59,006 bases of DNA, taken from a virus. Its lineage: Duplodnaviria; Caudoviricetes. Below are positions 35,565 to 46,330 of this stretch, in pieces. Below the pieces are notes generated by a model. The model ran no database searches and was not told where the DNA came from. It saw only the letters and a list, made by a program, of their open reading frames with translations. Location of the stretch: IMG/VR virus record IMGVR_UViG_3300032770_001058, positions 1 through 59,006 of that record; one strand, given 5' to 3'. Made by a program: the position numbers and the translations under genes. The stretch's first letter is position 1; each line of letters begins with the position of its first letter.

Positions 35565-36440
35565 CTAGAGAGATGCAGGATTGGCATCCGACCATGTCCT
35601 CAGTTTCTCTGTCGTGCTCAGCGCGTATGGGAATGAGTGCAAAAGCAACCGTACCGACGAGGCAGATACGTTTGCATTCATCGGGTGAACTGCATCATTG
35701 CGTTGCGTACGGATTGCTTCAAAGAGTGACACCAGGTGAAGGGTAGCGCCTTCTGAGGCCGAGTAGGGAATCGGTGCGGGGTTACCGGAGGAAAAGTCTT
35801 CAATCGTCTTCTTCACACAATCCAAAAGTGAGAAGAGTTGCCGCTTGTTCAGCGCCGCTTCCAGTGTGGAGCGTCGGCGTGACGGTCTTAGCGCGTTCAC
35901 CAGAGATGCTGCGAGCAAATAGATCGCCTTCTCTGAGGCAGCTCCCACCATCACCGCCGCCGCAAAATATGCCTCACGGTTGAACGCCGTTAGAGCTTCC
36001 AAAATGTATTGCTCGATGACACCGTCTAGTGTGGGAACATGTTCTCTCAGAAACTTCATGTAACCTGTCACCTCTTCAGGGATAGGTTCGGCCCCTTTAA
36101 TCCATTGCAAGCCACGTTCCGTCCAGCAGTACCATTCCGAGCGCGAGAAATTTAAATAGTCACCGGTCGGTTTTGGGTAAACATACCCGGCATTTAATAA
36201 ATAGAAGAGCCCTTCGTGGGCAGCTTTCTGCAGATCTTCTGGGGCCTGTTCGTACAAATATTGTCGACCTGGATAGTGCTGGTGTGGCGAGGGCTTGATA
36301 ACGCCCGGATCATTGATGGCTTCCAACTTTCGCCAGAGACGTTGGAAAAATATCTTAGAGCTAAGTTCGCCCATCTGTTCACTGAATGATGCGCGGACTA
36401 ATTGAAGGACCCGTTCCACACTGTAGTCTGCTTTGCTCAT
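35565..36440 (-). CDS. HEPN/DUF4145-like protein, possible abortive-infection effector
   Basis: EAL.AF...AY.AAAVM.GAA.E and RNDAVHP (R-x4-H); AT-richer. Start taken at MSKADY. Confidence 0.55.
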   Translation of the reverse strand: MSKADYSVERVLQLVRASFSEQMGELSSKIFFQRLWRKLEAINDPGVIKPSPHQHYPGRQYLYEQAPEDLQKAAHEGLFYLLNAGYVYPKPTGDYLNFSRSEWYCWTERGLQWIKGAEPIPEEVTGYMKFLREHVPTLDGVIEQYILEALTAFNREAYFAAAVMVGAASEKAIYLLAASLVNALRPSRRRSTLEAALNKRQLFSLLDCVKKTIEDFSSGNPAPIPYSASEGATLHLVSLFEAIRTQRNDAVHPMNANVSASSVRLLLHSFPYALSTTEKLRTWSDANPASL

Positions 36441-36633
36441 GACGCTATTTCTTTCGTTCGGTTCCGCCCAGTTTAGCTCCCATGTTCGCGTTGCAGCCAC
36501 CATGACCGCCACCGAACAGGCGTTCGGCCCAGCGAACAGGCGTTCGAAAACGTCTCCCGAAAACCCGCGCCGCGCGTGGATTGTCTTTTGGGACAACAGC
36601 CGAAAACGCATACAAACGCTGAGAAAAAAGGGA

Positions 36634-36663
36634 TTGCGCGGCCTGCCGCCGGAGTCCCAGAAT
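36634..36663 (+). promoter_or_regulatory. Candidate sigma-70 promoter of the ribozyme operon
   Basis: TTGCGC-N18-CAGAAT with an A tract upstream. Confidence 0.35.
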
Positions 36664-36669
36664 TCCCGC

Positions 36670-37235
36670 AGTTGTTTGGCTGTTTGGCAAGCGGCAACCA
36701 ACCGCAGGAGAACGGGAAGTGCGGCAGACGCGACGAAACCGAAGCGGCAACCAACCGCAGGAGAGCCGCACTTCCCACCTACCTTGTGCCGCTGGCCACG
36801 GCGACCGTTCGAATCCCACAAACGGCGAAAGCACAGTTGCAACGCGCATCCTGTTCCGCTGGCCTTCGGGCCGGAACGGTAGCGATGCCTGCGCTGCGCC
36901 CTCGCCGCGCGTGTTCTGGCGAACGGTCGGGCTAAGGCTTTCACCAGTCGCTCTCGTCGCGGCGAATGCGGGCTGCGGCCATATCCGGCAGGCTGTACCT
37001 TCCCAAATCGCGTAGCAGGTGCCGATAACCCTGCGAACCCTAGCCTGAGGAACGGCTAGTCGGGACAACTCGAATCCCGGAAATCTCGGAGCGCGGCAAT
37101 CGCCACGATACGGCGCAGTTCAAGAGTTCCGCCCATGGCGGAATCGCCTACAAGGTCGCGGCGCAGTCAAAGAAGCGGCGCGCTAACGGTCATACCGACG
37201 AGACTAAGTGAGAAGAGCGCAAGCGACAAAAAACC
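36670..37235 (+). ncRNA. Putative large structured RNA or 5' leader
   Basis: No convincing ORF; dense helices including 36714-25/36765-76 (12 bp), a C-UUCG-G hairpin at 36861-72, 37040-45/37054-59, 37061-65/37075-79, 37127-33/37137-43 and long-range 36952-59/37196-203. Confidence 0.5.
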
Positions 37236-37236
37236 T

Positions 37237-37302
37237 TCCCGATACTGCCTGATGAGAACGGGACGAAACCGGCCCACATGACAGTGTGGGCACGGTCGCA
37301 GT
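37237..37302 (+). ncRNA. Hammerhead ribozyme HH1 (type I, pseudoknot); predicted cleavage after C37297
   Basis: Stem I ACTGC/GCAGT, core CTGATGA, G-aacggga-C, GAAA, extended stem III, GTC triplet; loop CGGGA is complementary to upstream TCCCG. Confidence 0.9.
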
Positions 37303-37334
37303 TAAGCCGCAACCAGCGGCAGGAGAATTCCGCG

Positions 37335-37856
37335 ATGACAAATAGTAGAGGTTCGCTCCGCTCGGTTTACACGGTGAAGCCGAAGTCGAATTCGAAGAAA
37401 TCCGCTTTCCGTCGCCAGATGGCCGCGCGGCACAGGGCACAGGATGCCGTGCCGACCAGCAAACCCGCAACCAGCCTGAAGCCGAAGAGCGCCGCGAATG
37501 GCTGGGATGACCCTGAAATCCGCGCAAAGCGGATTGCGGCCATTCGCGCCGCGCGCGCTGGTGTCACCGGCCAGCAGCCGACCGAAGAAAAGAAGATGCC
37601 GACTCCTCCGCCGCGTGACCCTGAGCTAGCTGCTGCTCAGGACGCGATCGCCAAGCATCAGTTCGCGATTCTGTCGAAGCTGCCTGCTGAAAGCGTGGTC
37701 AGGTATTACGACCTGGGCTGGCGTCATGCCCACCTGATGGAAGCGAAACCCGACCGCTGCCGACTCCGCTCGATTCCTGCCTACAGCCGCAAACCCGTCA
37801 CCTTCACTGTGCCGACTTCCGAAGTCGAGGCCTACAGCGCTCCCGCGACTGCCTGA
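37335..37856 (+). CDS. Hypothetical basic protein with WDDPEIR motif; ends PATA inside HH2
   Basis: AGGAG RBS at 37321 and ATG at 37335; its stop codon is the TGA of the HH2 core. Confidence 0.7.
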   Translation: MTNSRGSLRSVYTVKPKSNSKKSAFRRQMAARHRAQDAVPTSKPATSLKPKSAANGWDDPEIRAKRIAAIRAARAGVTGQQPTEEKKMPTPPPRDPELAAAQDAIAKHQFAILSKLPAESVVRYYDLGWRHAHLMEAKPDRCRLRSIPAYSRKPVTFTVPTSEVEAYSAPATA

Positions 37857-37895
37857 TGAGATCGGGACGAAACCGGCAACTCGCCGGTCGCAGTC
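37841..37895 (+). ncRNA. Hammerhead ribozyme HH2; predicted cleavage after C37889
   Basis: GACTGC-CTGATGA-G-atcggga-C-GAAA-ccggc-aactc-gccgg-TC-GCAGTC. Confidence 0.92.
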
Positions 37896-37929
37896 ATTTC
37901 AAGCCGCAACCAGCGGCAGGAGAACGATC

Positions 37930-38520
37930 GTGATTAAGAGGAACAAACCCGAAGAGCAGTTAATCCCCGCTGATCTGGACGCCATCGCGAAGAACGCCAT
38001 GTACTGGCAGATTGCCTCGCAGCATGCCGAGGAAATCTACAAAGAAGTGAAGGCTGACTTCTTCCAGCGCGTCGAGACTCACCCGCAAATTGAGATGGTC
38101 GTGGGCAAGAGCCTGAAAGTCTCCACCGGCAAGGTGCGCTGGCAGTCGCGCGAAAACTTCGACGTGCTCCAGGATGAGATCGAGAAGGCGCTGGAGTCGG
38201 GCCGCATCACCGTGCCTGTGCTGTTAGGAATGGTGAAGTCGTACGACACCGACGCGGTGCGCCAGTTCGTACCCGCTGCGGTCGTACCGAACGCGGAGAA
38301 GCCGGTCACCGAGTATGGCGTGATGGTCGCTTCGGCGGACTATAAGGCCGAAGTTCATGCCCAGGTCGATGAGCTGCTGAATCAGTCGCCCGCGCCTGCT
38401 GTGCTCCCGCCCAATGTCGCCGTGATGAAGCCTGCGGCCAGTGTGCCACTCACCGAGCAACTGGAAGCCTCGCTCGCCGATGCGAAGAAGAAACGCTCCC
38501 GCAAGCCCGCGACTGCCTGA
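37930..38520 (+). CDS. Hypothetical protein, weakly Gam/gp157-like; ends PATA inside HH3
   Basis: RBS plus GTG start; helical N-terminus then KSLKVSTGKVRW. The family assignment is weak. Confidence 0.5.
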   Translation: MIKRNKPEEQLIPADLDAIAKNAMYWQIASQHAEEIYKEVKADFFQRVETHPQIEMVVGKSLKVSTGKVRWQSRENFDVLQDEIEKALESGRITVPVLLGMVKSYDTDAVRQFVPAAVVPNAEKPVTEYGVMVASADYKAEVHAQVDELLNQSPAPAVLPPNVAVMKPAASVPLTEQLEASLADAKKKRSRKPATA

Positions 38521-38563
38521 TGAGAACGGACCGAAACCGGCGACCCACTCGCCGGTCGCAGTC
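38506..38563 (+). ncRNA. Hammerhead ribozyme HH3; predicted cleavage after C38557
   Basis: GACTGC-CTGATGA-G-aacggac-C-GAAA-ccggcga-cccac-tcgccgg-TC-GCAGTC; shorter pseudoknot (CCG/CGG). Confidence 0.88.
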
Positions 38564-38597
38564 AATTCAAGCCGCAACCAGCGGCAGGAGAACGCAA

Positions 38598-39464
38598 GTG
38601 CAAGACACAAGCACCAATTACCGCTACTACACCGCCGAACCGCTCACCAATGACCAGCTTCGCCGCGTCGCGCCGTCCATCTTCGCCGAGCGGCCATGGG
38701 CGGAAATGTCTGACCGCTACACCTTCATTCCCACCATCCGCATTGTCGAGGAGATGCGTAAGGAAGGGCTGGTGCCCTATTTCGCCAAGCAGACGATCTC
38801 GCCTGTCGAAGGGCGGACCCCCTTTGCCATGCACATGATTCGCTTCCGCGATACGTCGCAACGCGGCCAGAAGCTGGTCGTCGGCGACTTGTATCCGGAA
38901 GTGACTCTCATCAACTCACACGATGGCGGCGCCAGCTACCGGCTGATGGCTGCTCTGCTGCGCGCGGCTTGCATGAACGGCCTGATGGTCAGCGATTCCG
39001 AGTTCGCGGCCATTCACGTCATGCATCGCGGCAACGTCACTCCCGTGCTTGAGGCCAGCTTCCAGGTCATCGAGCAGTTCCCGAAGATCATGGGCGAAGT
39101 GGGCGAGTTCCAGCGCATCGAGCTCAAGCGCGACCAACAACTGGCGCTGGCCGAATCGGCGCTGGAATTGAAGTACGACGAGCGGGACGATGGTTCGCTC
39201 GCCTGCCCGATCACCGCCGACGCCGTACTGATGCCGCGCCGCTCCGACGACTCGAAGCCCACGCTATGGAACACATACAACGTGGTACAGGAAAACCTGA
39301 TGAAGGGCGGCCAGCGCGGCGTCATCATCGGCGCGAATCACCGCACTCGCCGCGTCAAGACGCGTCCGGTGAAGGCGATTGCCACGGATGTCAAGTTAAA
39401 CAAGGCGCTGTGGACATTGACGGCGAGGATGGCCGAGTTGGTCGGCGCTCCCGCAGCCGCGTAA
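38598..39464 (+). CDS. DUF932/DUF945 family protein
   Basis: PLTNDQLRRVAPSIFA.....SDRY.FIPT, H.IRFR, LINSHDG.ASY, R.AC.NGL, LW..YNV.QEN...GG, LN.ALW.L. Confidence 0.85.
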   Translation: MQDTSTNYRYYTAEPLTNDQLRRVAPSIFAERPWAEMSDRYTFIPTIRIVEEMRKEGLVPYFAKQTISPVEGRTPFAMHMIRFRDTSQRGQKLVVGDLYPEVTLINSHDGGASYRLMAALLRAACMNGLMVSDSEFAAIHVMHRGNVTPVLEASFQVIEQFPKIMGEVGEFQRIELKRDQQLALAESALELKYDERDDGSLACPITADAVLMPRRSDDSKPTLWNTYNVVQENLMKGGQRGVIIGANHRTRRVKTRPVKAIATDVKLNKALWTLTARMAELVGAPAAA

Positions 39465-39477
39465 TCATTTCGTCATG

Positions 39478-39503
39478 GCTGGCCCGCTCGCTCGCGGGCC
39501 AGC
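39478..39503 (+). terminator. GC-rich hairpin after the DUF932 gene, without a U tract
   Basis: gctggcccgc/gcgggccagc 10-bp stem; could be a pause or 3' stability element instead. Confidence 0.35.
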
Positions 39504-39542
39504 GCGACTCAAACCGCTGTACTACCGAATAGGAGAACGGTC

Positions 39543-39836
39543 ATGGCAAAGAAAAACGCAAACGGCTGGGACGACCCTGAAATCCGGCAGCGCCGCATCG
39601 ACGCAATCCGCGCGGCGCTGGCGAAGAAACCCGCAACGAAGAAGGCGAAGAAGGCCAGCAAGAGCAGCCCGAAGGCGAAGGCCAGCAAACCCGCGAAGAA
39701 GGCGAAGAAAGCCAGCCCGAAGCCTGCGGCGACTCAGGCGAAGCAGCAGCCCGACACCAAACTGGCGAAAGCGCTGCACACGCTCGAATCGCGCGTGAAG
39801 GTCACGCCCATCAACTCACTTCCCGCAACTGCCTGA
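39543..39836 (+). CDS. Small Lys/Ala-rich, histone H1-like protein with WDDPEIR motif; ends PATA inside HH4
   Basis: AGGAG RBS; KKPATKKAKKASK repeats. Confidence 0.75.
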   Translation: MAKKNANGWDDPEIRQRRIDAIRAALAKKPATKKAKKASKSSPKAKASKPAKKAKKASPKPAATQAKQQPDTKLAKALHTLESRVKVTPINSLPATA

Positions 39837-39876
39837 TGAGAGCGGGACGAAACCGGCCATCCGGCCGGTCGCAGTT
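39821..39876 (+). ncRNA. Hammerhead ribozyme HH4; predicted cleavage after C39870
   Basis: AACTGC-CTGATGA-G-agcggga-C-GAAA-ccggcc-atcc-ggccgg-TC-GCAGTT; pseudoknot TCCCGC/GCGGGA. Confidence 0.92.
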
Positions 39877-39905
39877 AAGCCGCAACCAGCGGCAGGAGAA
39901 CACCG

Positions 39906-41078
39906 ATGTTGGAACAACCGCTATCAGCCAGTCTCATCCTCACCAACGCCAAACACGATAAGGTCTTTCGCGCCTGGCTCATGCCGCAAGGCACGGGATG
40001 GGTGGTCAGAACCGAATGGGGCGCGCGCTCTGCCGGTAAACTCAGCTCGCAGGTGAAGCCCGACTCTCCGACGACCTATGAGGCCGCGAAGAAGATCTAC
40101 GACAAGAAAATCCGCGAGAAAACCGAGTTGCCGTGCTCCTGCGGCTGCGGCGACCGCTACCTGCAAACCCGCGTCGAAGCGGGCGAGCCGAAGCTGCAGC
40201 CGATCGATTGCACGGCGGCGCAGGCGGAGCAGGAACAGAAAGCCGAAGCTGTCGCTGGTCCGACAAGCTGGGCACCGCAACTGCTCGAACCCATCGAAGG
40301 AGAGCGCGGCAAGCTGCTGCTGGTCGGTGATGACCGCTACGGCGCGCAGGAGAAGTACGACGGTGTCTGTATTTCCCTATGGTGGGCGGAAGAGCAGCGC
40401 GCGCGCTGCTTCAACAAACTCGGCCAACTCCGCGACGTGCCCACCTACGTTGCCGACTCGCTGATCGCGCGCGCTCGTGAAGCCGAAGCGAAGTCATTTT
40501 GGGTTCACGGCGAGCTGCTTCCGAACGGCGGGCCGCTGGTCGTGCACGACCTGATGGAATGGAACGGCGACGATCAGCGCGGCGAAACCTATCGCGCACG
40601 CTTTGGGCTGGTCGCGACGTTCCTCGGCAACTGCCTGCATATCGCGATTCCGGAATTGATCACCGGAACGCATGCGAAGAGCGCGTTCGTCGCCGCACTC
40701 GCCGCGAAGCGGGCCGAAGGTGTCGTATTCAAGCGGCTCAATGCGCCGTACCTGCCCGGTCGTACGCAGCACTTCAAATTCAAATTCTGGCAGTCGGCCA
40801 CTTGCAAGGTCACTCCGAAGCGGAAGATCGACGGCAAGAATTCCCACGCCATCTCGGTGTTGCGCAAGGGGAAGCTGGTCGAAGTCGGCACCGTCACCGG
40901 CAAGAGCAGCGTACCGGCCCAGGTCGGCTCGCTGGTCGAAGTGAAATACCTTTATGTGGGTCATGGCGATCGCTTCGTGCAGCCCGAATTGCTGGGCCTG
41001 CGCGACGATCAGGCCCGGCCCGACGATTGGTCCACCCTCAAGCTGAAAGACACTCACCGGGAGGCGCGGTCATGCTAG
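39906..41078 (+). CDS. WGR-domain ATP-dependent DNA ligase
   Basis: N-terminal WGR-like domain (HDKVF, TEWGAR, A.K.YDK.I.EK); ligase motifs QEKYDG, HGEL, HDL, EGVVFK, KFK; OB fold EVKYLY...QP...RDD. Confidence 0.8.
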   Translation: MLEQPLSASLILTNAKHDKVFRAWLMPQGTGWVVRTEWGARSAGKLSSQVKPDSPTTYEAAKKIYDKKIREKTELPCSCGCGDRYLQTRVEAGEPKLQPIDCTAAQAEQEQKAEAVAGPTSWAPQLLEPIEGERGKLLLVGDDRYGAQEKYDGVCISLWWAEEQRARCFNKLGQLRDVPTYVADSLIARAREAEAKSFWVHGELLPNGGPLVVHDLMEWNGDDQRGETYRARFGLVATFLGNCLHIAIPELITGTHAKSAFVAALAAKRAEGVVFKRLNAPYLPGRTQHFKFKFWQSATCKVTPKRKIDGKNSHAISVLRKGKLVEVGTVTGKSSVPAQVGSLVEVKYLYVGHGDRFVQPELLGLRDDQARPDDWSTLKLKDTHREARSC

Positions 41079-41296
41079 TCCACGTCTTCCGCTTCCCCTC
41101 ACCCGAGCTTGACGAATGCGCGACGACCATAAGAGCAGCTATCCGCGCTCACTGGCGCCGGGAGATCACCTTCGCCGAATACCTGGCGGTGAGAGATGCT
41201 GCACATGCGAAGTGCGAGCATGTATTGCTCCGCATCTTTGCCGCCCTGGACCGCTCGGACGACCGGCCCGAGGTCTCCGAACGGCTGGCGGCATGA
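41072..41296 (+). CDS. Hypothetical protein (74 aa)
   Basis: GGAGG RBS; ATG overlaps the end of the ligase gene. Confidence 0.55.
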   Translation: MLVHVFRFPSPELDECATTIRAAIRAHWRREITFAEYLAVRDAAHAKCEHVLLRIFAALDRSDDRPEVSERLAA

Positions 41297-41299
41297 CCT

Positions 41300-41357
41300 T
41301 CCCGCAACTGCCTGAGAGAACGGGACGAAACCGGCGACTCGTTCGCCGGTCGCAGTT
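41300..41357 (+). ncRNA. Hammerhead ribozyme HH5, degenerate (core CTGA-GA lacks position 7)
   Basis: AACTGC-CTGAGA-G-aacggga-C-GAAA-ccggcga-ctcgt-tcgccgg-TC-GCAGTT. Confidence 0.75.
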
Positions 41358-41385
41358 AAGCCGCAACCAGCGGCAGGAGAACGCT

Positions 41386-41547
41386 ATGAGATGCCCGTTT
41401 TGCCACGGTGAGATCGACGAGCAATACAGCCTGCTCGATCAATGCCAGCGGTTAGAGCAGGAACGCTGGCAGCGCGAATTCGACGCCGGACTCCGGCGAT
41501 TGGTCGAAACCGTCGATAAAGTCATGGCCAAAGTCGGCCACGCATAG
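41386..41547 (+). CDS. Hypothetical 53-aa protein with N-terminal CxxC
   Basis: Follows the conserved hairpin plus AGGAG; starts MRCPFCHG. Confidence 0.6.
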   Translation: MRCPFCHGEIDEQYSLLDQCQRLEQERWQREFDAGLRRLVETVDKVMAKVGHA

Positions 41548-41621
41548 GCGCTGTGCTGTATCTCGGCCAGCAATAACTTCCACCTTCAACAAAGCTGCTT
41601 ACTCGCAGCAGGAGAATTCAT

Positions 41622-43349
41622 ATGTCTACGACAACAGTTGCAGTCCTGCCTGTAAACCGAAAGAAAGCCGACGCGCTGGACGTTCAGATGCTGCCGATCG
41701 GCGTCCTCACCCTCTCCGAAACCAATCCGCGCTCCGGGATGGACGCAACCGAGCTCGACGAGCTGGCCAAATCTATTCTCGACCACGGAATCCTGCAGCC
41801 GCTGGTCGTGCGGCCACATCCAGGCGTCGTCGTGGTGGAGTCCAGCGTCCCGGGCCGCTGGTATGCCGCTTATGAGAACGGCACCGACCATCCCAATCTG
41901 ATCGGCACCGGCCACGAAAAGAAGGCAGAGGCTGAGGCCGAAGCGGCTGGCATTCGCCGCTGGGAGATCATCGCCGGCGCGCGGCGCTATAAGGCCGCGA
42001 AGCTGGCGAAGCTGCGCGAGGTTCCATGCCGCATCGTGCGCGTTAGCAATCAGGAAGCGCGCGACATTCAGATCATCGAAAACCTGCAGCGCACCGACAT
42101 TCACCCGCTGGATGAAGCCGAAGCTTTCGTGCAACTGCTCGGCTCAAGCGGCGACATCAAGGCTCTGGCGAAGCGCGTTGCCAAGCCTGAACTCTATGTG
42201 CGGCGCCGTCTCTCCCTGCACGAGTTGATCGAGCCTGCGAAGAAGGCGTTCCGGGAGCATCGCATCTTCCCGGGCCACGCCTATCAACTCAGCCGATTCC
42301 CGACGAACGCGCAGAAGGCAGTCTGGAAGCAGTTAGAGGGCAAAGACGTCACCCCCAATCAACTGCGCAAGGCCATCGCCGACAATTTCACCCTGAAACT
42401 GTCGGGCGCGCCATTCGATACCGGCGATGCGAAGCTGCTCGAAGCGGCGGGAAGCTGCACCGACTGCCCGAAGCGCACCGGCAACAATCCGCTGCTGTTC
42501 TCCGACATCAAGGCGGCCGACACCTGCACCGACCGCGACTGCTACAGCCGTAAGGTGGAAGCCCATCTCGTGCAGATCGCAACGAAGCTGGAAAAGGCCA
42601 GCGGGAAGCCGGTCCTGCGTCTGTCGGAGAAGTTCCAACCAACCATCAAGGGCGCGCTCTCCAGCGGCCAGTGGCATCGCTGCGACCGCGCGTCAGAATG
42701 TGCTCATGCGCAGCAAGGCATCATCGTGGAGACCGATTATTACGGCTCCGGCCCGAAGAAGCTGGGCCAGACGATCACCGTCTGTGCGACGAAGGAGTGC
42801 AAGTTTCACTTCGGCTCGCACACTGGGGAGTCGGCTGAGTCGATGCAGGAGCGGGAGCGCACGAAGCGCCGCGTGGTGAAGCAGAAGGTCGGGGTCAATA
42901 AGGCCGTCTTTACCGCCGTGCAGGAGAAGATGCCCGGAGTCCTGGGCGCCGAAGAGCTGCGCCTGATCGGGCGCGAACTGTTCCAGCGCGTTTACGGGCC
43001 TTATCGCAATCGCATCGCCCGCGACGTGTACCAGCTCGAACCCAAGATCGTGAAGAGCCACTACGTCACGACCGGCGGCACGACGAAGGATTACGCCGCT
43101 GCGCTGCTGGCGAAGCTGCCGGAGATGAACGCGAAGGAACTGACCCGCTTCTGCCTGATCTCGCTTACCGCGGGTAACGCCTACACTCCGCCGCTGTACA
43201 CCAATTCCAGCGCCGAGCCGGAGAATCCGCTCTACACCCTCGCCAAACTCTACAAGGTGGACGCTCGTTCCATCCGCGAGAAGATCGTCACCACTGATCG
43301 CGAGAAGGCGAAAGCAAAGAAGGCGACGAGAGCCGCGAAAGCCGCTTAA
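41622..43349 (+). CDS. Large ParB/RepB/Spo0J-family protein with Cys-rich middle region
   Basis: NPR...ELA.SI...GILQPLVVRP, IIAGARRYKAA, IIENLQR.DIHPLDEA.AF; C..CPKR, C.D..CY. Confidence 0.85.
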   Translation: MSTTTVAVLPVNRKKADALDVQMLPIGVLTLSETNPRSGMDATELDELAKSILDHGILQPLVVRPHPGVVVVESSVPGRWYAAYENGTDHPNLIGTGHEKKAEAEAEAAGIRRWEIIAGARRYKAAKLAKLREVPCRIVRVSNQEARDIQIIENLQRTDIHPLDEAEAFVQLLGSSGDIKALAKRVAKPELYVRRRLSLHELIEPAKKAFREHRIFPGHAYQLSRFPTNAQKAVWKQLEGKDVTPNQLRKAIADNFTLKLSGAPFDTGDAKLLEAAGSCTDCPKRTGNNPLLFSDIKAADTCTDRDCYSRKVEAHLVQIATKLEKASGKPVLRLSEKFQPTIKGALSSGQWHRCDRASECAHAQQGIIVETDYYGSGPKKLGQTITVCATKECKFHFGSHTGESAESMQERERTKRRVVKQKVGVNKAVFTAVQEKMPGVLGAEELRLIGRELFQRVYGPYRNRIARDVYQLEPKIVKSHYVTTGGTTKDYAAALLAKLPEMNAKELTRFCLISLTAGNAYTPPLYTNSSAEPENPLYTLAKLYKVDARSIREKIVTTDREKAKAKKATRAAKAA

Positions 43350-43477
43350 TCGCCGCGCGGGCCTGCCCCGCGCGCTCTGCTTCTCCTCTTCGAGCCCGAT
43401 GCCTCCGCAGTAGCGAGAGCCAGTGCCGCAATGAGAAGCAGGGCGCGGACGGCAGGACCGCCGTACGCAACTAACGG

Positions 43478-44032
43478 TTATTCGTTCGGGAACCTGAAAC
43501 GTCCCAATTGTTCAGACACAGAACTGAATGACTTTCCGCCACTGACTGTTTCCCGCGCTAACAACGCGGTCTTTTCACCGCAGTCAATCCAGACCCTCTG
43601 CCAAACCACATCAACGTCGGTGTTAGTGTGGGTGTCAGTCCGTACAGTACATTTCGCAAACCCCTCGTCGTTCAAGTGGGTGATTAGGCCGTAAAGAGCT
43701 TCAGCCGTGTCATCATTAGGGGTGGTCCATCGACGCTCCGCAAAGGTAAGCAATCCGCGCGTAAATTGCATGGTGGGCAAGTCTCGTCCTGCCTTAATAT
43801 CGTCCACGGTTCCCAACCACAACTCGTCATCATCCGGTTTCATTAGCTGCTGTCCGGCCAACTTCTCCGCGACCTGGGCCTTTGTCATTCCTAAACGTAA
43901 CTTCACTCCGCCTATTTCGATCGCGGTTCTGCTTAACTGCTGGGAGGGCTGCTTTTGTGCGTGTAGAAGCGGCGGACATATACAGCAGAGCACGATTGCG
44001 GTCGTCGAAATTGCGCGTTTCATGTTGTTCAC
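43478..44032 (-). CDS. Secreted hypothetical protein (moron)
   Basis: Signal-peptide-like N-terminus; AT-richer. Confidence 0.5.
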   Translation of the reverse strand: MNNMKRAISTTAIVLCCICPPLLHAQKQPSQQLSRTAIEIGGVKLRLGMTKAQVAEKLAGQQLMKPDDDELWLGTVDDIKAGRDLPTMQFTRGLLTFAERRWTTPNDDTAEALYGLITHLNDEGFAKCTVRTDTHTNTDVDVVWQRVWIDCGEKTALLARETVSGGKSFSSVSEQLGRFRFPNE

Positions 44033-44087
44033 CTTATTTTGACGGAAGCGGACACATGCTACACCTCGCTTTCGGCAATGAGAACAC

Positions 44088-44735
44088 CTATGTCTGCGGC
44101 TGGAGATCGTCTACCTGCCGCTCATAAACCGTGTCTAATCTCAAGGTGAGGGCGAAGATATGCACTGCGATGCTTAGCGCGTCGTTGGGCGCAAGCGGCT
44201 GGTGAAGCAACGGCACGACGAAGTTGATGTTTTGTCCCGCTGCTTGGAGCCGACCTAAGGCGGATTCGATCTGGTTAGCCAGTTCCACTTGAAAGGCCGC
44301 AGTAAAACGGCGTTTCCAGTCGGCCTCGTTCTTGTCCATCTCGATTTTCTTGGTCGGATTGGCTGTTCGCCCCGAAATTGGAATCGGCCCGTTCTTAGCT
44401 ACGAAATCAACGGTACACTCGCGTATCGTTGCGCACATCATTACTGCTTCCCGCTTTACCGTTCCATCCCGCCCAATCAACCGTTCTGCGTTCTGAAAGC
44501 GCCGATAAATAACGTCTGCCATTCGCCACCCCAAAAAGCCAACGAAAAGCGCAGTTCCCCACCACGGCGACAGAAGGTGCAAGTGGCTCATGAGCACCCT
44601 CTGTGCGCCGCTGACTAGCCCCAATACAGCCCAGGCTGCTCCGCTGAGGATGCCAACCAAGAAAATTGTGTCTCGGTAATCTTGGCGAGAATGTCTAAAT
44701 GCTTCGGTGAATACCGACCAGTAGAATCGCAGCAT
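44088..44735 (-). CDS. Two-TM membrane protein (moron)
   Basis: Two hydrophobic helices then a soluble domain; start taken at MLRFYW. Confidence 0.5.
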   Translation of the reverse strand: MLRFYWSVFTEAFRHSRQDYRDTIFLVGILSGAAWAVLGLVSGAQRVLMSHLHLLSPWWGTALFVGFLGWRMADVIYRRFQNAERLIGRDGTVKREAVMMCATIRECTVDFVAKNGPIPISGRTANPTKKIEMDKNEADWKRRFTAAFQVELANQIESALGRLQAAGQNINFVVPLLHQPLAPNDALSIAVHIFALTLRLDTVYERQVDDLQPQT

Positions 44736-44821
44736 ATCTGGCGATTGTAATGCGCCAGTGGAAAACGAGAATGGCCCACACCCAGTAAGCCTCTTCAGTT
44801 TCTCGACTGAGGCGGCGGCAC

Positions 44822-45026
44822 TATAATCGAGATTCCACAAAGCGGCAACCAGCCGCTGGAGCATCCCTAATGCCAGCCGCTAAAGCTTGATCTCCGTCCG
44901 TGCGACTCCGCGCGTGCGGAGCGTGAACGGGGGTGGTACCCTGCCAAGCCCGCTACGTCAAGGCGGGAAGCCGTAGGCCGCGTTCGCGCGGCCTGCGCAC
45001 TTTTAAGCGGTCACCAACCGCAGGAG
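44822..45026 (+). promoter_or_regulatory. Structured leader of the AAA gene: TATAAT, AACCA hairpin, 6-codon ORF, terminator-like hairpin, second hairpin plus RBS
   Basis: TATAAT 44822-27; agcggc-aacca-gccgct 44841-57; MPAAKA* 44870-90; stem 44972-97 with UUCG loop then cacTTTT; gcgg-tcaccaa-ccgc-AGGAG 45007-26. Confidence 0.45.
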
Positions 45027-45032
45027 AACGAG

Positions 45033-45926
45033 ATGCGTCATCAGGAGATATTTGACTCCGACCCTCAGTCCGAGATGGACCTGGGCCAACCCAAACAGAA
45101 TGCCATCCAGTTTCCCGTCACTCTTGCCGAACGCTACCAGCCGCGCCACATCGCCGAATTCATCGGCTTAGAACATCCCAAGCGGCTGCTCACCAACCTG
45201 ATCGCCAAGCCTCGACCATGCCCTCTGCTCTTCATCGGCCCGCCTGGAGCTGGGAAGACCGCGATGGGCGTGACCTTCGCGGTCGAACTACCCGGCGCGC
45301 TGCACCATGTCAGCGCGCAAAAGTGCGATGTCGCGGCACTGGACGCGCTGGGCGAGAAATTCTCCTACATCCCGCCCAGGGGCCGATTCTGGATTTCGCT
45401 GATTGACGAAGCCGACCAAATGACCGAGAAGGCGCAACTGCAACTGCTATCCCGCTTGGATGGGACAGCCGCACTGCGGCCGGTATTCGGTGGCGGATTT
45501 GAACGCGGCGAGCCGTTGCCGATCATCTGGATTTTCACGGCTAACGGTCGAGGGTCAAAGCAGATAGAGCCGCCATACAGTTTCGCGTCCCGCTTCCTCT
45601 CGCGCTGTATGATCGTGCCCTTCGAACTCCCGACTCAGGCTGAACTCGCCGCGTATCTGCGCAAACTGTGGGAATTGGAAGGCGGTGGGCCGACGCCCGC
45701 CGACTATTTCGACTACATCGCCGACGACTGCGCTGTCCGCGATGCCCTGATGAAACTCGAAGTCGATCTGCTGGCCGGCCCGCGCGCGCGACCTGTGCCG
45801 GAGATCACCGACCAGCCTCAACCGAAACCGGTAACTTGTGACCGAGGAGCAAACCAATGGGACGACCCGGAAATTCGCAAACGCCGAATCGAAGGAATCC
45901 GCGCGGCTATGGCGAAAAGAAAGTAA
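45033..45926 (+). CDS. AAA+ ATPase of the clamp-loader clade with C-terminal WDDPEIR motif
   Basis: LAERYQP....EFIG, GPPGAGKT, IDEADQMT..AQ..LL, FTAN, FLSRC, VRDAL..LE. Confidence 0.8.
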   Translation: MRHQEIFDSDPQSEMDLGQPKQNAIQFPVTLAERYQPRHIAEFIGLEHPKRLLTNLIAKPRPCPLLFIGPPGAGKTAMGVTFAVELPGALHHVSAQKCDVAALDALGEKFSYIPPRGRFWISLIDEADQMTEKAQLQLLSRLDGTAALRPVFGGGFERGEPLPIIWIFTANGRGSKQIEPPYSFASRFLSRCMIVPFELPTQAELAAYLRKLWELEGGGPTPADYFDYIADDCAVRDALMKLEVDLLAGPRARPVPEITDQPQPKPVTCDRGANQWDDPEIRKRRIEGIRAAMAKRK

Positions 45927-46330
45927 TTCTCGTCGCCGCTTGCCGCATGGGCGAATGCTGCCGGTTTCACGGGCGTGTCGTCGAGTCCCCTGCGGTCGAG
46001 AGCGCCCTGCGAGTCTTACCGAATGTGCCAGTCTGCCCCGAAATGGCCGCTGGCCTGGGCTGCCCGCGCGCAGCCACGCACAAGCGCAAAGGCCGCCACT
46101 TCTGCGGCGACGTCGATGTCACCGAGCTGCTGCAGCGGACCTGCGCTAAGCTGGCCGCAAAGTACGCCGAGTCGGCCGCGTACTACATCGGCGTTCGAGG
46201 CTCACCGACTTGCGACCCGCAGCACGGCATCTTTACTGCTGCTCTGCGTCGGCTTGGGGTGCCGTCGCGCCTGAGCGTGCGGCCTGGTGATCGCGAAAGC
46301 GCTGCTCACCCGAATTTGCCATTCGGGTAA
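45857..46330 (+). CDS. DUF523 / thiouracil desulfidase-like Fe-S protein
   Basis: ILVAAC..G.CCRF.G, PVCPEMAAGLG.PR, SPTC, G.F.A.L...G. Homology starts near 45923, so the true start is unclear. Confidence 0.7.
   Translation: MGRPGNSQTPNRRNPRGYGEKKVILVAACRMGECCRFHGRVVESPAVESALRVLPNVPVCPEMAAGLGCPRAATHKRKGRHFCGDVDVTELLQRTCAKLAAKYAESAAYYIGVRGSPTCDPQHGIFTAALRRLGVPSRLSVRPGDRESAAHPNLPFG

What the first reader, a model, noticed from the sequence alone, without database searches (positions are those of the whole stretch)
37237..41385. Phage operon punctuated by five hammerhead ribozymes
Seen: five copies of a ~85-95-nt unit at gene junctions (37237, 37841, 38506, 39821, 41300). Each has the hammerhead core CUGAUGA...GAAA...GUC (HH5 lacks one base), stem I with compensatory outer pairs (GACUGC/GCAGUC versus AACUGC/GCAGUU), a stem III whose distal part differs in every copy yet always pairs, a one-base-pair stem II, and a loop (CGGGA) complementary to UCCCG just 5' of stem I. 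Known: these are the hallmarks of type I hammerheads, which leave a 2',3'-cyclic phosphate and a 5'-OH; hammerheads near phage genes have been reported but their role is largely unknown. Inference: the polycistron cuts itself, without host RNases, into one- or two-gene mRNAs with identical 5' leaders. This is the best candidate for an undescribed system here.
Basis: partly seen in the sequence, partly recalled or inferred. Interest (0 to 1): 0.95.

Follow-up and report, generated by a model that had tools for sequence, protein, structure and literature searches.

The report
Hammerhead ribozymes punctuating a prophage operon
Four intact self-cutting hammerhead RNA motifs, plus one with a damaged core, sit at gene junctions of a prophage's early operon, each followed by the same small hairpin and ribosome-binding site; this is a new structural variant of an arrangement already described for prophages in 2011.

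Summary
Five units lie at the stated places on the + strand. [quoted passage not shown] A conserved hairpin and Shine-Dalgarno leader follows. HH1-HH4 have the full core. HH5 lacks core position N7. HH3 has a C.A mismatch in the pseudoknot.

Rfam gives no match at its gathering scores. The nearest family is RAGATH-1-hammerhead, at 26 bits against a cut-off of 56.3.

I found 30 distinct copies in related wetland-metagenome contigs and in more distant viral contigs. Across them, stems I and III and the pseudoknot covary, N7 varies (U/C/A), and the cleavage nucleotide is C, U or A. Arrays of 2-4 copies recur in relatives.

The window is a provirus, and the units sit in its early/replication operon. 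In three units the upstream gene's stop codon is the UGA of the catalytic core.

The most likely role is self-processing of the polycistron into one- or two-gene mRNAs with a standard hairpin-SD leader, much like the synthetic RiboJ insulator. Cleavage itself is untested, and no RNA data were available.

Perreault et al. (2011) described clustered prophage hammerheads and proposed the same role. I rate this a new variant of a known kind.

The parts
36600..37234 (+). Conserved non-coding stretch upstream of HH1. It probably serves as a long 5' leader or ncRNA that HH1 would cut off. It holds two hammerhead-less copies of the hairpin-SD leader (36689-36711, 36742-36764).
   Evidence: 93-100% conserved in five related contigs, with indels of 1, 2 and 4 nt. 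No Rfam match and no tRNA. Repeat family D1.
37237..37303 (+). HH1. Pseudoknot strand 37237-37241, stem I 37244-37248 / 37298-37302, core from 37249, cleavage after C37297. It lies in non-coding RNA.
   Evidence: (RF03152, 26.5 bits)
37304..37327 (+). Leader hairpin GCCGC-AACCA-GCGGC plus SD AGGAGAA, ahead of gene 1
37335..37856 (+). Gene 1, 173 aa, no family match. Its stop codon is U4G5A6 of the HH2 core, and the protein ends PATA.
37841..37895 (+). HH2, cleavage after C37889
   Evidence: (25.9 bits)
37901..37924 (+). Leader hairpin plus SD ahead of gene 2
37930..38520 (+). Gene 2, 196 aa, no family match. Its stop codon lies in the HH3 core, and the protein ends PATA.
38505..38563 (+). HH3, cleavage after C38557. 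In this record the pseudoknot has a C.A mismatch (A38530). Relatives carry G there.
   Evidence: 38530 A>G in X2 and X3
38569..38592 (+). Leader hairpin plus SD ahead of gene 3
38598..39464 (+). Gene 3, DUF932 protein, 288 aa
   Evidence: PF06067, E 6.6e-35; phrog_12094
39543..39836 (+). Gene 4, 97 aa, Lys/Ala-rich. No hammerhead stands ahead of it. Its stop codon lies in the HH4 core, and the protein ends PATA.
39821..39876 (+). HH4, cleavage after C39870. Six-pair pseudoknot UCCCGC/GCGGGA.
   Evidence: (25.8 bits)
39877..39900 (+). Leader hairpin plus SD ahead of gene 5
39906..41078 (+). Gene 5, a divergent ATP-dependent DNA-ligase-like protein, 390 aa
   Evidence: all weak and below curated cut-offs
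41072..41296 (+). Gene 6, 74 aa, overlaps the end of gene 5. It stops 18 nt before the HH5 core.
41300..41357 (+). HH5. The core reads CUGA-GA, so N7 is missing, and the copy is probably impaired. The nominal site is after C41351.
   Evidence: The equivalent copy in relative L123 has CUGAUGA.
41358..41381 (+). Leader hairpin plus SD ahead of gene 7 (41386-41547, 53 aa)
41622..43349 (+). Gene 8, ParB-like protein. The same + strand operon continues here.
45005..45027 (+). Leader hairpin variant GCGGU-CACCA-ACCGC plus SD, without a hammerhead, ahead of the AAA/clamp-loader-like gene 45033-45926

Best explanation
The five units are hammerhead self-cleaving ribozymes of a variant build. They are type I, with stem II reduced to the single G10.1-C11.1 pair. 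The 7-nt stem II loop forms a 5-6 bp pseudoknot with the nucleotides immediately 5' of stem I.

They sit in the early/replication operon of a provirus. The long + strand transcript would cut itself after C37297, C37889, C38557 and C39870. The cut at C41351 is doubtful because that core lacks N7.

This would give a leader RNA, then gene 1 (592 nt), gene 2 (668 nt), genes 3+4 (1313 nt), and genes 5+6 onward. Each downstream product would start with 5'-OH-GCAGU, then a 5-bp hairpin, the SD AGGAGAA and a start codon 34-40 nt from the cut. Each upstream product would keep its stop codon and end in the G+C-rich stem III hairpin with a 2',3'-cyclic phosphate.

The likely effect is to uncouple the genes and give each a standard, context-free and probably more stable translation start. 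This is the natural counterpart of the synthetic RiboJ insulator, which is a hammerhead plus a hairpin.

Shown here: the motif, its covariation, its recurrence in arrays and the gene layout. Inferred: cleavage, the chemistry of the ends (from what is established for hammerheads), and the stabilising or insulating role.
For: Core and shape. The strict core word occurs 4 times in the window, against a shuffle mean of 0.01. Three copies match Rfam RF03152 over model positions 24/26-77, which include its one-pair stem II.

Copies elsewhere. A model built from the five copies found 42 matches at E<=0.01 in 35 other sources.

Covariation. In the final alignment of 37 copies (30 distinct), 92.6% of cells pair, against 76.3% in shuffles (0 of 500 shuffles reach it) and 24-46% when partners are slid. 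There are 83 cells changed on both sides, against 26.7. This includes the pseudoknot, whose end pair is U-A in 18 rows and G-C in 8.

Variation follows hammerhead rules. Among 27 distinct copies that span the core, N7 is U in 23, C in 3 and missing in 1. H17 is C in 25, U in 1 and A in 1, and never G. One further copy has N7 = A.

Arrays recur. L111 has 4 copies. L106, L098 and L094 have 3 each. Five more contigs have 2 each.

A mismatch that relatives lack. The HH3 pseudoknot mismatch in the window is a paired G in the relatives.

Context. All copies lie on the coding strand just ahead of a ribosome-binding site. The window is a provirus with structural genes on the - strand and early genes on the + strand.

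Precedent. Clustered prophage hammerheads cleave in vitro and in E. coli (PMC3088659). A one-pair stem II hammerhead that depends on a pseudoknot was measured at >1.2 per min (same paper). RiboJ is a hammerhead plus a 23-nt hairpin, and that paper's kinetic model takes uncleaved mRNA to decay faster, a value it draws from earlier literature (PMC7536230).
Against: No cleavage assay and no RNA data exist for this element, and no promoter was found above chance.

Rfam places no copy in any hammerhead family at its gathering score.

HH5 lacks a core base and HH3 has a weakened pseudoknot, so at most three or four sites are fully credible in this record.

The alignment was fitted to my model for the nested stems. 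The loci were fetched with words that fix the core and part of the loop. Many rows are 92-96% identical strains. All three inflate pairing percentages.

Only 11 pairs show a change on both sides, and 27 of 500 shuffles reach that number.

In HH2-HH4 the 5' half of the ribozyme is translated, so ribosomes must compete with folding.

Whether a 5'-OH end stabilises or destabilises an mRNA depends on the host's RNases, and the host is unknown.
Confidence: 0.62

Rival explanations
1. Translation-gated cutting. In HH2, HH3 and HH4 the pseudoknot strand, the stem I 5' strand and the first core bases are coding sequence, and the stop codon is the core's UGA. A ribosome finishing the upstream gene would therefore unfold the ribozyme. 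Cutting would then report on how heavily the upstream gene is translated, and would set the ratio of polycistronic to processed RNA rather than being constitutive.
For: The upstream ORFs of 214, 260 and 123 open codons end exactly at U4G5A6 in HH2, HH3 and HH4. The same holds in L111 (3 of 4 copies), L098 (2 copies) and the distant L094:3128. Three unrelated proteins end in PATA, and a fourth, in L098, ends in PETA.
Against: HH1 and HH5 do not overlap an ORF. Most copies of the distant group stop 17-40 nt before the core, so the overlap is not a family feature. It may simply reflect compact phage coding. Nothing shows that ribosome occupancy changes cleavage.
Confidence: 0.14
2. Cassette joints at the DNA level. 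The ~85-95-bp units, nearly identical within a genome, act mainly as sites of homologous recombination through which gene cassettes are gained, lost or shuffled. The ribozyme would be secondary or a passenger.
For: Relative L098 carries an extra small ORF of about 100 codons, bounded by two units, between gene 1 and gene 2. Metagenome contigs join 41296 to 37841 (X4) and 37178 to 40942 (X3). Perreault et al. note that the genes flanked by clustered hammerheads are not constant.
Against: Recombination sites would not need a conserved catalytic core, compensatory changes in three helices, or the N7/H17 variation pattern. The contig joints at repeats may be assembly artefacts. This reading is compatible with the best explanation as a side effect.
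Confidence: 0.08
3. Circular or ligated RNAs. All units share the same stem I. The 5' end of each excised RNA (GCAGU...) can therefore pair with the stem I 5' strand near its own 3' end. That would rebuild a nicked hammerhead able to reseal, alone or with an RtcB-type ligase, giving gene-length circular mRNAs.
For: Stem I is ACUGC/GCAGU in all five window copies, while stem III differs. The ends would be 5'-OH and 2',3'-cyclic phosphate (established hammerhead chemistry). Perreault et al. raise the possibility.
Against: Perreault et al. looked for spliced or circular products in their systems and found none. Identical stems I can be explained by recent duplication or gene conversion. In the distant group, they can be explained by stem I doubling as the SD. 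No RNA data are available here.
Confidence: 0.05
4. Decaying or inactive relics. The units are hammerhead-derived repeats that no longer cut, and the conserved part that matters is only the hairpin-SD leader.
For: HH5 lacks N7 and HH3 has a pseudoknot mismatch in this record. The leader also occurs without a hammerhead at 36689, 36742 and 45005. A one-pair stem II is extreme.
Against: Relatives have an intact HH5 equivalent (L123) and a paired HH3 pseudoknot. Stems are replaced wholesale yet still pair, as in L111:1646 and L111:2897. A one-pair stem II hammerhead with a pseudoknot was measured as fast (PMC3088659).
Confidence: 0.06

Closest known systems
Clustered hammerhead ribozymes of prophages (Perreault et al. 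2011, PMC3088659; Agrobacterium tumefaciens, Azorhizobium caulinodans, Clostridium scindens)
   Same: Several hammerheads on one strand flank single genes or short gene blocks of a prophage. The flanked genes vary. Processing of a polycistronic phage transcript was proposed. Many use a pseudoknot between stems I and II (passages read).
   Different: This array has five copies. All are type I with a one-pair stem II. Each is fused to an identical hairpin-SD leader, and three have the upstream stop codon inside the core. I could not see that paper's figures or supplements, so I cannot say whether this exact build is among its alignments.
RAGATH-1 hammerhead (Rfam RF03152)
   Same: One-pair stem II with a 7-nt loop that ends in GGA, and a type I layout. 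The stem II loop pairs with upstream sequence. It is the best and only hammerhead match in Rfam.
   Different: In RF03152 the partner of the loop is the loop of a separate 5' hairpin, joined by an AUAAAAU linker (true member L007, 59.7 bits). Here the partner is a linear strand 1-2 nt from stem I. The window copies score 26 bits against a cut-off of 56.3 and align only to model positions 24/26-77.
[quoted passage not shown] 2011, Figure 4)
   Same: A single-pair stem II whose activity depends on a 6-bp pseudoknot. It shows that such minimal forms can be fast (>1.2 per min at 0.5 mM Mg).
   Different: That form is type II, with the pseudoknot between loop I and the 3' tail. Here the form is type I, with the pseudoknot between loop II and the 5' tail.
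RiboJ and related synthetic ribozyme insulators
   Same: A hammerhead followed by a hairpin just ahead of the ribosome-binding site. This gives a fixed 5' UTR whatever lies upstream (PMC7536230, passages).
   Different: RiboJ is engineered from a plant satellite-RNA hammerhead with a 23-nt hairpin. Here the element is natural, has a different hammerhead build and a 15-nt hairpin, and is repeated inside one operon.
HHphage of haloviruses HF1/HF2
   Same: A hammerhead a few nucleotides (13) upstream of the start codon of an early phage gene. A mapped 5' end lies within three nucleotides of the cleavage site (PMC3088659).
   Different: It is a single copy of a high-salt core variant in an archaeal virus, not an array.

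Membership tests
Hammerhead ribozyme (class) | Core C3 U4 G5 A6 N7 G8 A9 ... G12 A13 A14, as listed in PMC3088659 | tested here: met
   HH1-HH4 have CUGAUGA and GAA. HH5 lacks N7 and fails this row.
Hammerhead ribozyme (class) | A15.1-U16.1 pair and H17 (A, C or U) at the cleavage site, with pairs closing the core in stems I and II | tested here: met
   A-U is kept in 30 of 30 rows, and G10.1-C11.1 in 30 of 30. H17 is C in 25, U in 1 and A in 1 of the 27 distinct rows that have it. G1.1-C2.1 is kept in 30 of 30 (pair 16-69).
Hammerhead ribozyme (class) | Three helices around the core, supported by covariation | tested here: met
   In stem I, 5 of 6 pairs show changes on both sides. In stem III, 4 of 6 do. 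Stem II is a single invariant pair, so it carries no covariation. Caveat: the alignment was fitted to the model, and many rows are close relatives.
Hammerhead ribozyme (class) | [quoted passage not shown] | tested here: inconclusive
   A 5-6 bp pseudoknot between loop II and the 5' flank is 86.7% paired over 30 rows. Its end pair is U-A in 18 rows and G-C in 8. Its effect on the cleavage rate cannot be tested here.
Hammerhead ribozyme (class) | Site-specific self-cleavage giving 2',3'-cyclic phosphate and 5'-OH ends | not testable with these tools
   This needs in vitro transcription or RNA end mapping. No RNA run was listed.
RAGATH-1-hammerhead (RF03152) | Score at or above the Rfam gathering cut-off (56.3 bits) | tested here: not met
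   The scores are 26.5, 25.9 and 25.8 bits for HH1, HH2 and HH4. HH3 and HH5 are not listed at E<=10.
RAGATH-1-hammerhead (RF03152) | A 5' hairpin (model positions 2-18) whose loop pairs with the stem II loop, joined by an A/U-rich linker | tested here: not met
   Model positions 1-23 are not aligned in any window copy. A true member, L007, shows the hairpin and linker. Here the pairing strand abuts stem I.
RAGATH-1-hammerhead (RF03152) | One-pair stem II with a 7-nt loop | tested here: met
Other Rfam hammerhead families (types I, II, III, HH9, HH10; names recalled, not from a call) | Any match up to E = 10 | tested here: not met
   Only RF03152 appears among hammerhead models in the permissive scan of 36800-41800.

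The most novel reading that the evidence does not exclude
The unit is a natural, portable 'gene cassette joint' that works at two levels. As RNA, the hammerhead plus hairpin-SD cuts every cassette free and gives it a standard start. Because all units share stem I, the excised gene-length RNAs could also close their own ends into circular, exonuclease-proof mRNAs. As DNA, the near-identical units let cassettes be swapped between phages. In the older, G+C-rich branch of the family, stem I itself is the Shine-Dalgarno sequence, so cutting would switch translation on.
Probability: 0.1. Interest if true: 0.85.

Novelty: new variant of a known kind. Interest (0 to 1): 0.5.

Why it matters
The biological role of bacterial and phage hammerheads is still listed as unsettled (PMC6765202). 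This locus is an unusually clean test case for four reasons.
- Four intact ribozymes sit in 2.7 kb.
- Each is coupled to the same hairpin-SD leader.
- Three overlap the end of the upstream gene.
- Natural "knock-outs" lie beside them: HH5 without N7, and HH3 with a pseudoknot mismatch that relatives lack.

It also defines a hammerhead build that no Rfam model reports at its threshold. Genome annotation would therefore miss such arrays. Finally, it suggests that the RiboJ design principle (ribozyme plus hairpin ahead of the RBS) already exists in nature.

Tried and rejected
Rfam at gathering thresholds over the whole window gave 0 matches. A permissive scan gave sub-threshold RF03152 hits plus three chance-level hits: anti-hemB on the - strand, PtaRNA1 and sR1. 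I treat those three as noise.

The - strand reading of HH1 as a terminator (the anti-hemB-like match, with a U-run at 37226-37237) was rejected. It scores 19.8 bits against a cut-off of 49.5 and occurs at one unit only.

The promoter and terminator scan of 36200-46200 found 2 promoter-like sites against 2.1 expected, and 11 terminator-like sites against 11.3 expected. It is not informative, and the host is unknown.

Expression: no RNA holder was listed for 36600-41500. Only DNA contigs could be laid, so they say nothing about transcripts.

Synteny route: 80 viral loci that encode relatives of the DUF932 gene (at most 46% identity) gave no hit at E<=0.01 with model R1 (L023 best, E 0.016). With R2, the only hit at E<=0.01 was L023. 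The ribozyme is therefore not tied to DUF932.

GenBank phages: TerL is below 46% identical to any record. The HH4 unit has no blastn match.

GTDB genome contigs: the loop-specific word hit only 2 MAG contigs. Both score poorly with the models.

The whole record behind L006 has one copy only. L094, L109 and L113 are not held as whole records.

The ORF 36719-37015 behind the first leader copy was rejected as a gene. Relatives carry 2- and 4-nt indels inside it, and it has no family match.

The consensus fold of 36780-37234 predicted 115 pairs, but only 1 had a change on both sides. That is too little variation to call a structure.

The leader hairpin has only 4 distinct versions in the window. 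Two of its 5 pairs change on both sides, but 64 of 500 shuffles do as well, so the support is weak.

Whether the missing base of HH5 is an assembly error could not be settled. No laid contig bridges 41296-41353.

Literature limits: 'RAGATH' does not occur in the main text of Weinberg et al. 2017 (PMC5737381). I did not ask for any supplementary file, as supplements were announced as closed. Dataset S1 and Figures S1-S8 of PMC3088659, and the supplement of PMC5737381, may hold this very build. My statements that a natural hammerhead with the SD in stem I, or this pseudoknot layout, is not described rest only on searches and on the passages read.

Full report
WHAT IS THERE

The window is one IMG/VR provirus record of 59,006 bases, estimated 84% complete.

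Structural and packaging genes lie on the - strand from about 2.3 to 36.4 kb. They include tail fibre, head-tail adaptor, major head protein, protease, portal, and the large and small terminase subunits.

A + strand block of early or replication-type genes runs from 37.3 to about 46 kb. It holds two proteins without family, a DUF932 protein, a 97-aa Lys/Ala-rich protein, a divergent ATP-dependent DNA-ligase-like protein, two small proteins, a ParB-like protein and an AAA/clamp-loader-like ATPase. An integrase lies at 49.3-50.6 kb.

The finding lies at the start of the + strand block.

The word CTGANGAG-N7-CGAAAC occurs exactly four times, against a mean of 0.01 in 100 shuffles. The fifth unit reads CTGAGAG, which is the core without position 7.

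Read as a hammerhead, every unit has these features:
- Stem I is ACUGC/GCAGU. Its sixth pair is G-C in HH2 and HH3, A-U in HH4 and HH5, and mismatched in HH1.
- Stem II is the single pair G10.1-C11.1, closing a 7-nt loop.
- GAA is followed by the A15.1-U16.1 pair.
- Stem III shares its first six pairs, while its outer part and loop differ in every copy.
- GUC precedes the 3' strand of stem I.

The loop CGGGA is complementary to UCCCG, which lies 2-3 nt before stem I. HH4 can form a sixth pair. HH3 has GCCCG with CGGAC, giving four pairs and a C.A mismatch.

Nested MFE folding finds stem III and the downstream hairpin in all five units. It then picks either stem I or the loop/flank helix, as expected for a pseudoknot.

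Each hammerhead is followed, after 0 or 5 nt, by an identical 24-nt module. The module is a 5-bp hairpin with loop AACCA, then AGGAGAA. The start codon of the next gene lies 34-40 nt from the cut.

Four more copies of this module stand without a hammerhead, and their stems carry changes on both sides. One of them lies ahead of the AAA ATPase gene.

In HH2, HH3 and HH4 the upstream ORF runs through the pseudoknot strand and the 5' strand of stem I. It ends at the UGA formed by U4 G5 A6 of the core. As a result, three unrelated proteins end in PATA. The cut lies 3' of the stop codon, so no product would lack a stop.

IS IT A HAMMERHEAD?

Rfam reports nothing at its gathering scores. In a permissive scan the only hammerhead model that appears is RF03152, RAGATH-1-hammerhead. 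It scores 26 bits for HH1, HH2 and HH4, against a cut-off of 56.3, and aligns only from model position 24 or 26 onward.

A true member found in a viral contig (L007, 59.7 bits) shows what is missing. In RF03152 the stem II loop pairs with the loop of a separate 5' hairpin, joined by an AUAAAAU linker. Here the partner strand directly abuts stem I. The window copies therefore work like RAGATH-1 hammerheads but fail two of that family's defining features.

EVIDENCE FROM ELSEWHERE

The word CTGATGAG-NN-CGGGACGAAAC found 5 viral, 2 genome and 32 metagenome stretches. A covariance model of the five window copies (R1) scores the five at 68-84 bits, with 15 bits for the next best place in the window. 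That result holds by construction. The same model gave 42 matches at E<=0.01 in 35 other sources.

Nine metagenome contigs (L093, L098, L102, L106, L111, L116, L117, L122, L123) are 92-96% identical to the window over their length. They carry the same units at the same junctions. L111 has four and L106 and L098 have three each.

More distant G+C-rich contigs also carry arrays or single copies: L094 with three, L109 with two, and L006, L099 and L113. A second viral scan added L126-L131.

In the final alignment of 37 copies (30 distinct), counted with the pseudoknot:
- 92.6% of cells pair, against 76.3% in shuffles (0 of 500 reach it) and 24-46% when partners are slid.
- 83 cells are changed on both sides, against 26.7 in shuffles.
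- Stem I has such changes in 5 of 6 pairs and stem III in 4 of 6.
- The end pair of the pseudoknot is U-A in 18 rows and G-C in 8.

Individual cases are telling:
- Relatives of HH3 have GCCCG with CGGGC.
- L128 has UCCCAG with CUGGGA.
- L099 has UCCUGA with UCGGGA.
- L111 replaces the whole of stem III in two copies and still pairs.

Variation obeys the hammerhead rules. N7 is U, C or A. H17 is C, U or A and never G. The other core positions never change, except in the window's HH5.

Three limits apply. The nested stems were aligned to my model. The loci were fetched with words that fix the core. Many rows are strains of one phage. The number of pairs with a change on both sides (11) is reached by 27 of 500 shuffles.

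STATE OF THE FIVE COPIES

HH1, HH2 and HH4 are canonical for this build.

HH3 has A at 38530 where contigs of two other runs and three related contigs have G. Its pseudoknot is therefore weakened in this record.

HH5 lacks N7, whereas the equivalent copy in L123 has CUGAUGA. I could not tell a real deletion from an assembly error, because no laid contig bridges that unit.

HOW IT MOST LIKELY WORKS

Established hammerhead chemistry gives a 2',3'-cyclic phosphate on C17 and a 5'-OH on the next base.

The transcript of the early block would be cut into five kinds of product. These are a long leader RNA, gene 1 (592 nt), gene 2 (668 nt), genes 3+4 (1313 nt), and genes 5+6 with whatever follows.

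Each upstream piece ends in the G+C-rich stem III hairpin. Each downstream piece begins with a few bases, a hairpin and the SD.

This is the layout of the synthetic RiboJ insulator, described as a hammerhead plus a 23-nt hairpin that normalises the 5' UTR. In that paper's kinetic model, uncleaved mRNA is assumed to decay faster, a value taken from earlier literature (PMC7536230).

I therefore read the unit as a natural insulator and processing site. It uncouples neighbouring genes and gives each a fixed, probably more stable, translation start. The motif, its conservation and the layout are shown. The cutting, the stability and the insulation are inferred.

In the distant branch the 3' strand of stem I is GGGAGGU, with a start codon 5-10 nt behind it. 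There the SD is paired before the cut and would be freed after it.

Rivals are given in their own section. They are cutting gated by translation of the upstream gene, a DNA-level role of the repeats in cassette exchange, circularisation of the excised RNAs, and inactive relics.

COMPARISON WITH WHAT IS KNOWN

Perreault et al. [quoted passage not shown] They showed cleavage for three tandem arrangements in vitro and for one in E. coli. They also describe pseudoknots in about 40% of hammerheads, and one type II example with a one-pair stem II that depends on its pseudoknot (PMC3088659; passages read). A 2019 review still calls the purpose undefined (PMC6765202).

What is new here is the build, its coupling to a repeated hairpin-SD leader, the stop codon inside the core, and the branch with the SD in stem I. 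The build is type I, with a one-pair stem II and the pseudoknot strand abutting stem I, and no Rfam model reports it.

I found no paper describing these points in searches. The supplements of the two key papers could not be read and may contain this build.

VERDICT

The finding is real, well supported as a hammerhead array, and biologically neat. It is a new variant of a known kind, not an undescribed system. Interest 0.5.

Noticed in passing
window 36600-37234 (+): A stretch of about 630 nt between the divergent control region and HH1 is 93-100% conserved in five related contigs, yet carries indels of 1, 2 and 4 nt, so it is not coding. It holds two hairpin-SD copies nested in a 12-bp inverted repeat (36714-36725 / 36765-36776), and two T-loop-like words (near 36806 and 37062-37080). 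It has no Rfam match and no tRNA. HH1 would release it as a separate RNA.
   Followed up: partly
window 37494-37561, 39558-39625, 45849-45916: Three proteins of the operon share the peptide NGWDDPEIRxxRIxxIRAA: gene 1, gene 4 and the C-terminus of the AAA ATPase. No family match was found for it.
   Followed up: no
L098 (reverse strand), between its second and third hammerhead copies: A relative 92-94% identical to the window has an extra ORF of about 100 codons, ending PETA, bounded by two units and inserted between gene 1 and gene 2. This is cassette gain or loss at the units. Metagenome contigs also join 41296 to 37841 (X4) and 37178 to 40942 (X3).
   Followed up: partly
L094 2481-3880; L109 13392-14248; L006; L113; L099; L126-L131: In a more distant, G+C-rich branch of the same hammerhead build, the 3' strand of stem I is GGGAGG(U), which is the Shine-Dalgarno sequence. 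The start codon follows after 5-10 nt. The SD is therefore paired until the ribozyme cuts.
   Followed up: partly
window 39465-39542: The gene 3 / gene 4 junction has no hammerhead. Instead it has a 10-bp G+C hairpin (39478-39503) without a U-tail, followed by the SD word AGGAGAA without the leader hairpin.
   Followed up: no
L010 6107-6952 (- strand): A 7.6-kb viral contig carries a Pistol ribozyme (59.3 bits), a RAGATH-1-like hammerhead and a tRNA within about 850 nt.
   Followed up: no
window 44840-44862: A further copy of the leader hairpin (GCGGC-AACCA-GCCGC, SD weakened to UGGAGC) overlaps the start of a 258-aa ORF on the - strand. Only a 6-codon ORF follows it on the + strand. Its meaning is unclear.
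   Followed up: no
window about 36513-36526: Homology with relatives L111 and L122 starts here. To the left their sequence differs from the window. This marks a mosaic boundary at the start of the early module.
   Followed up: no
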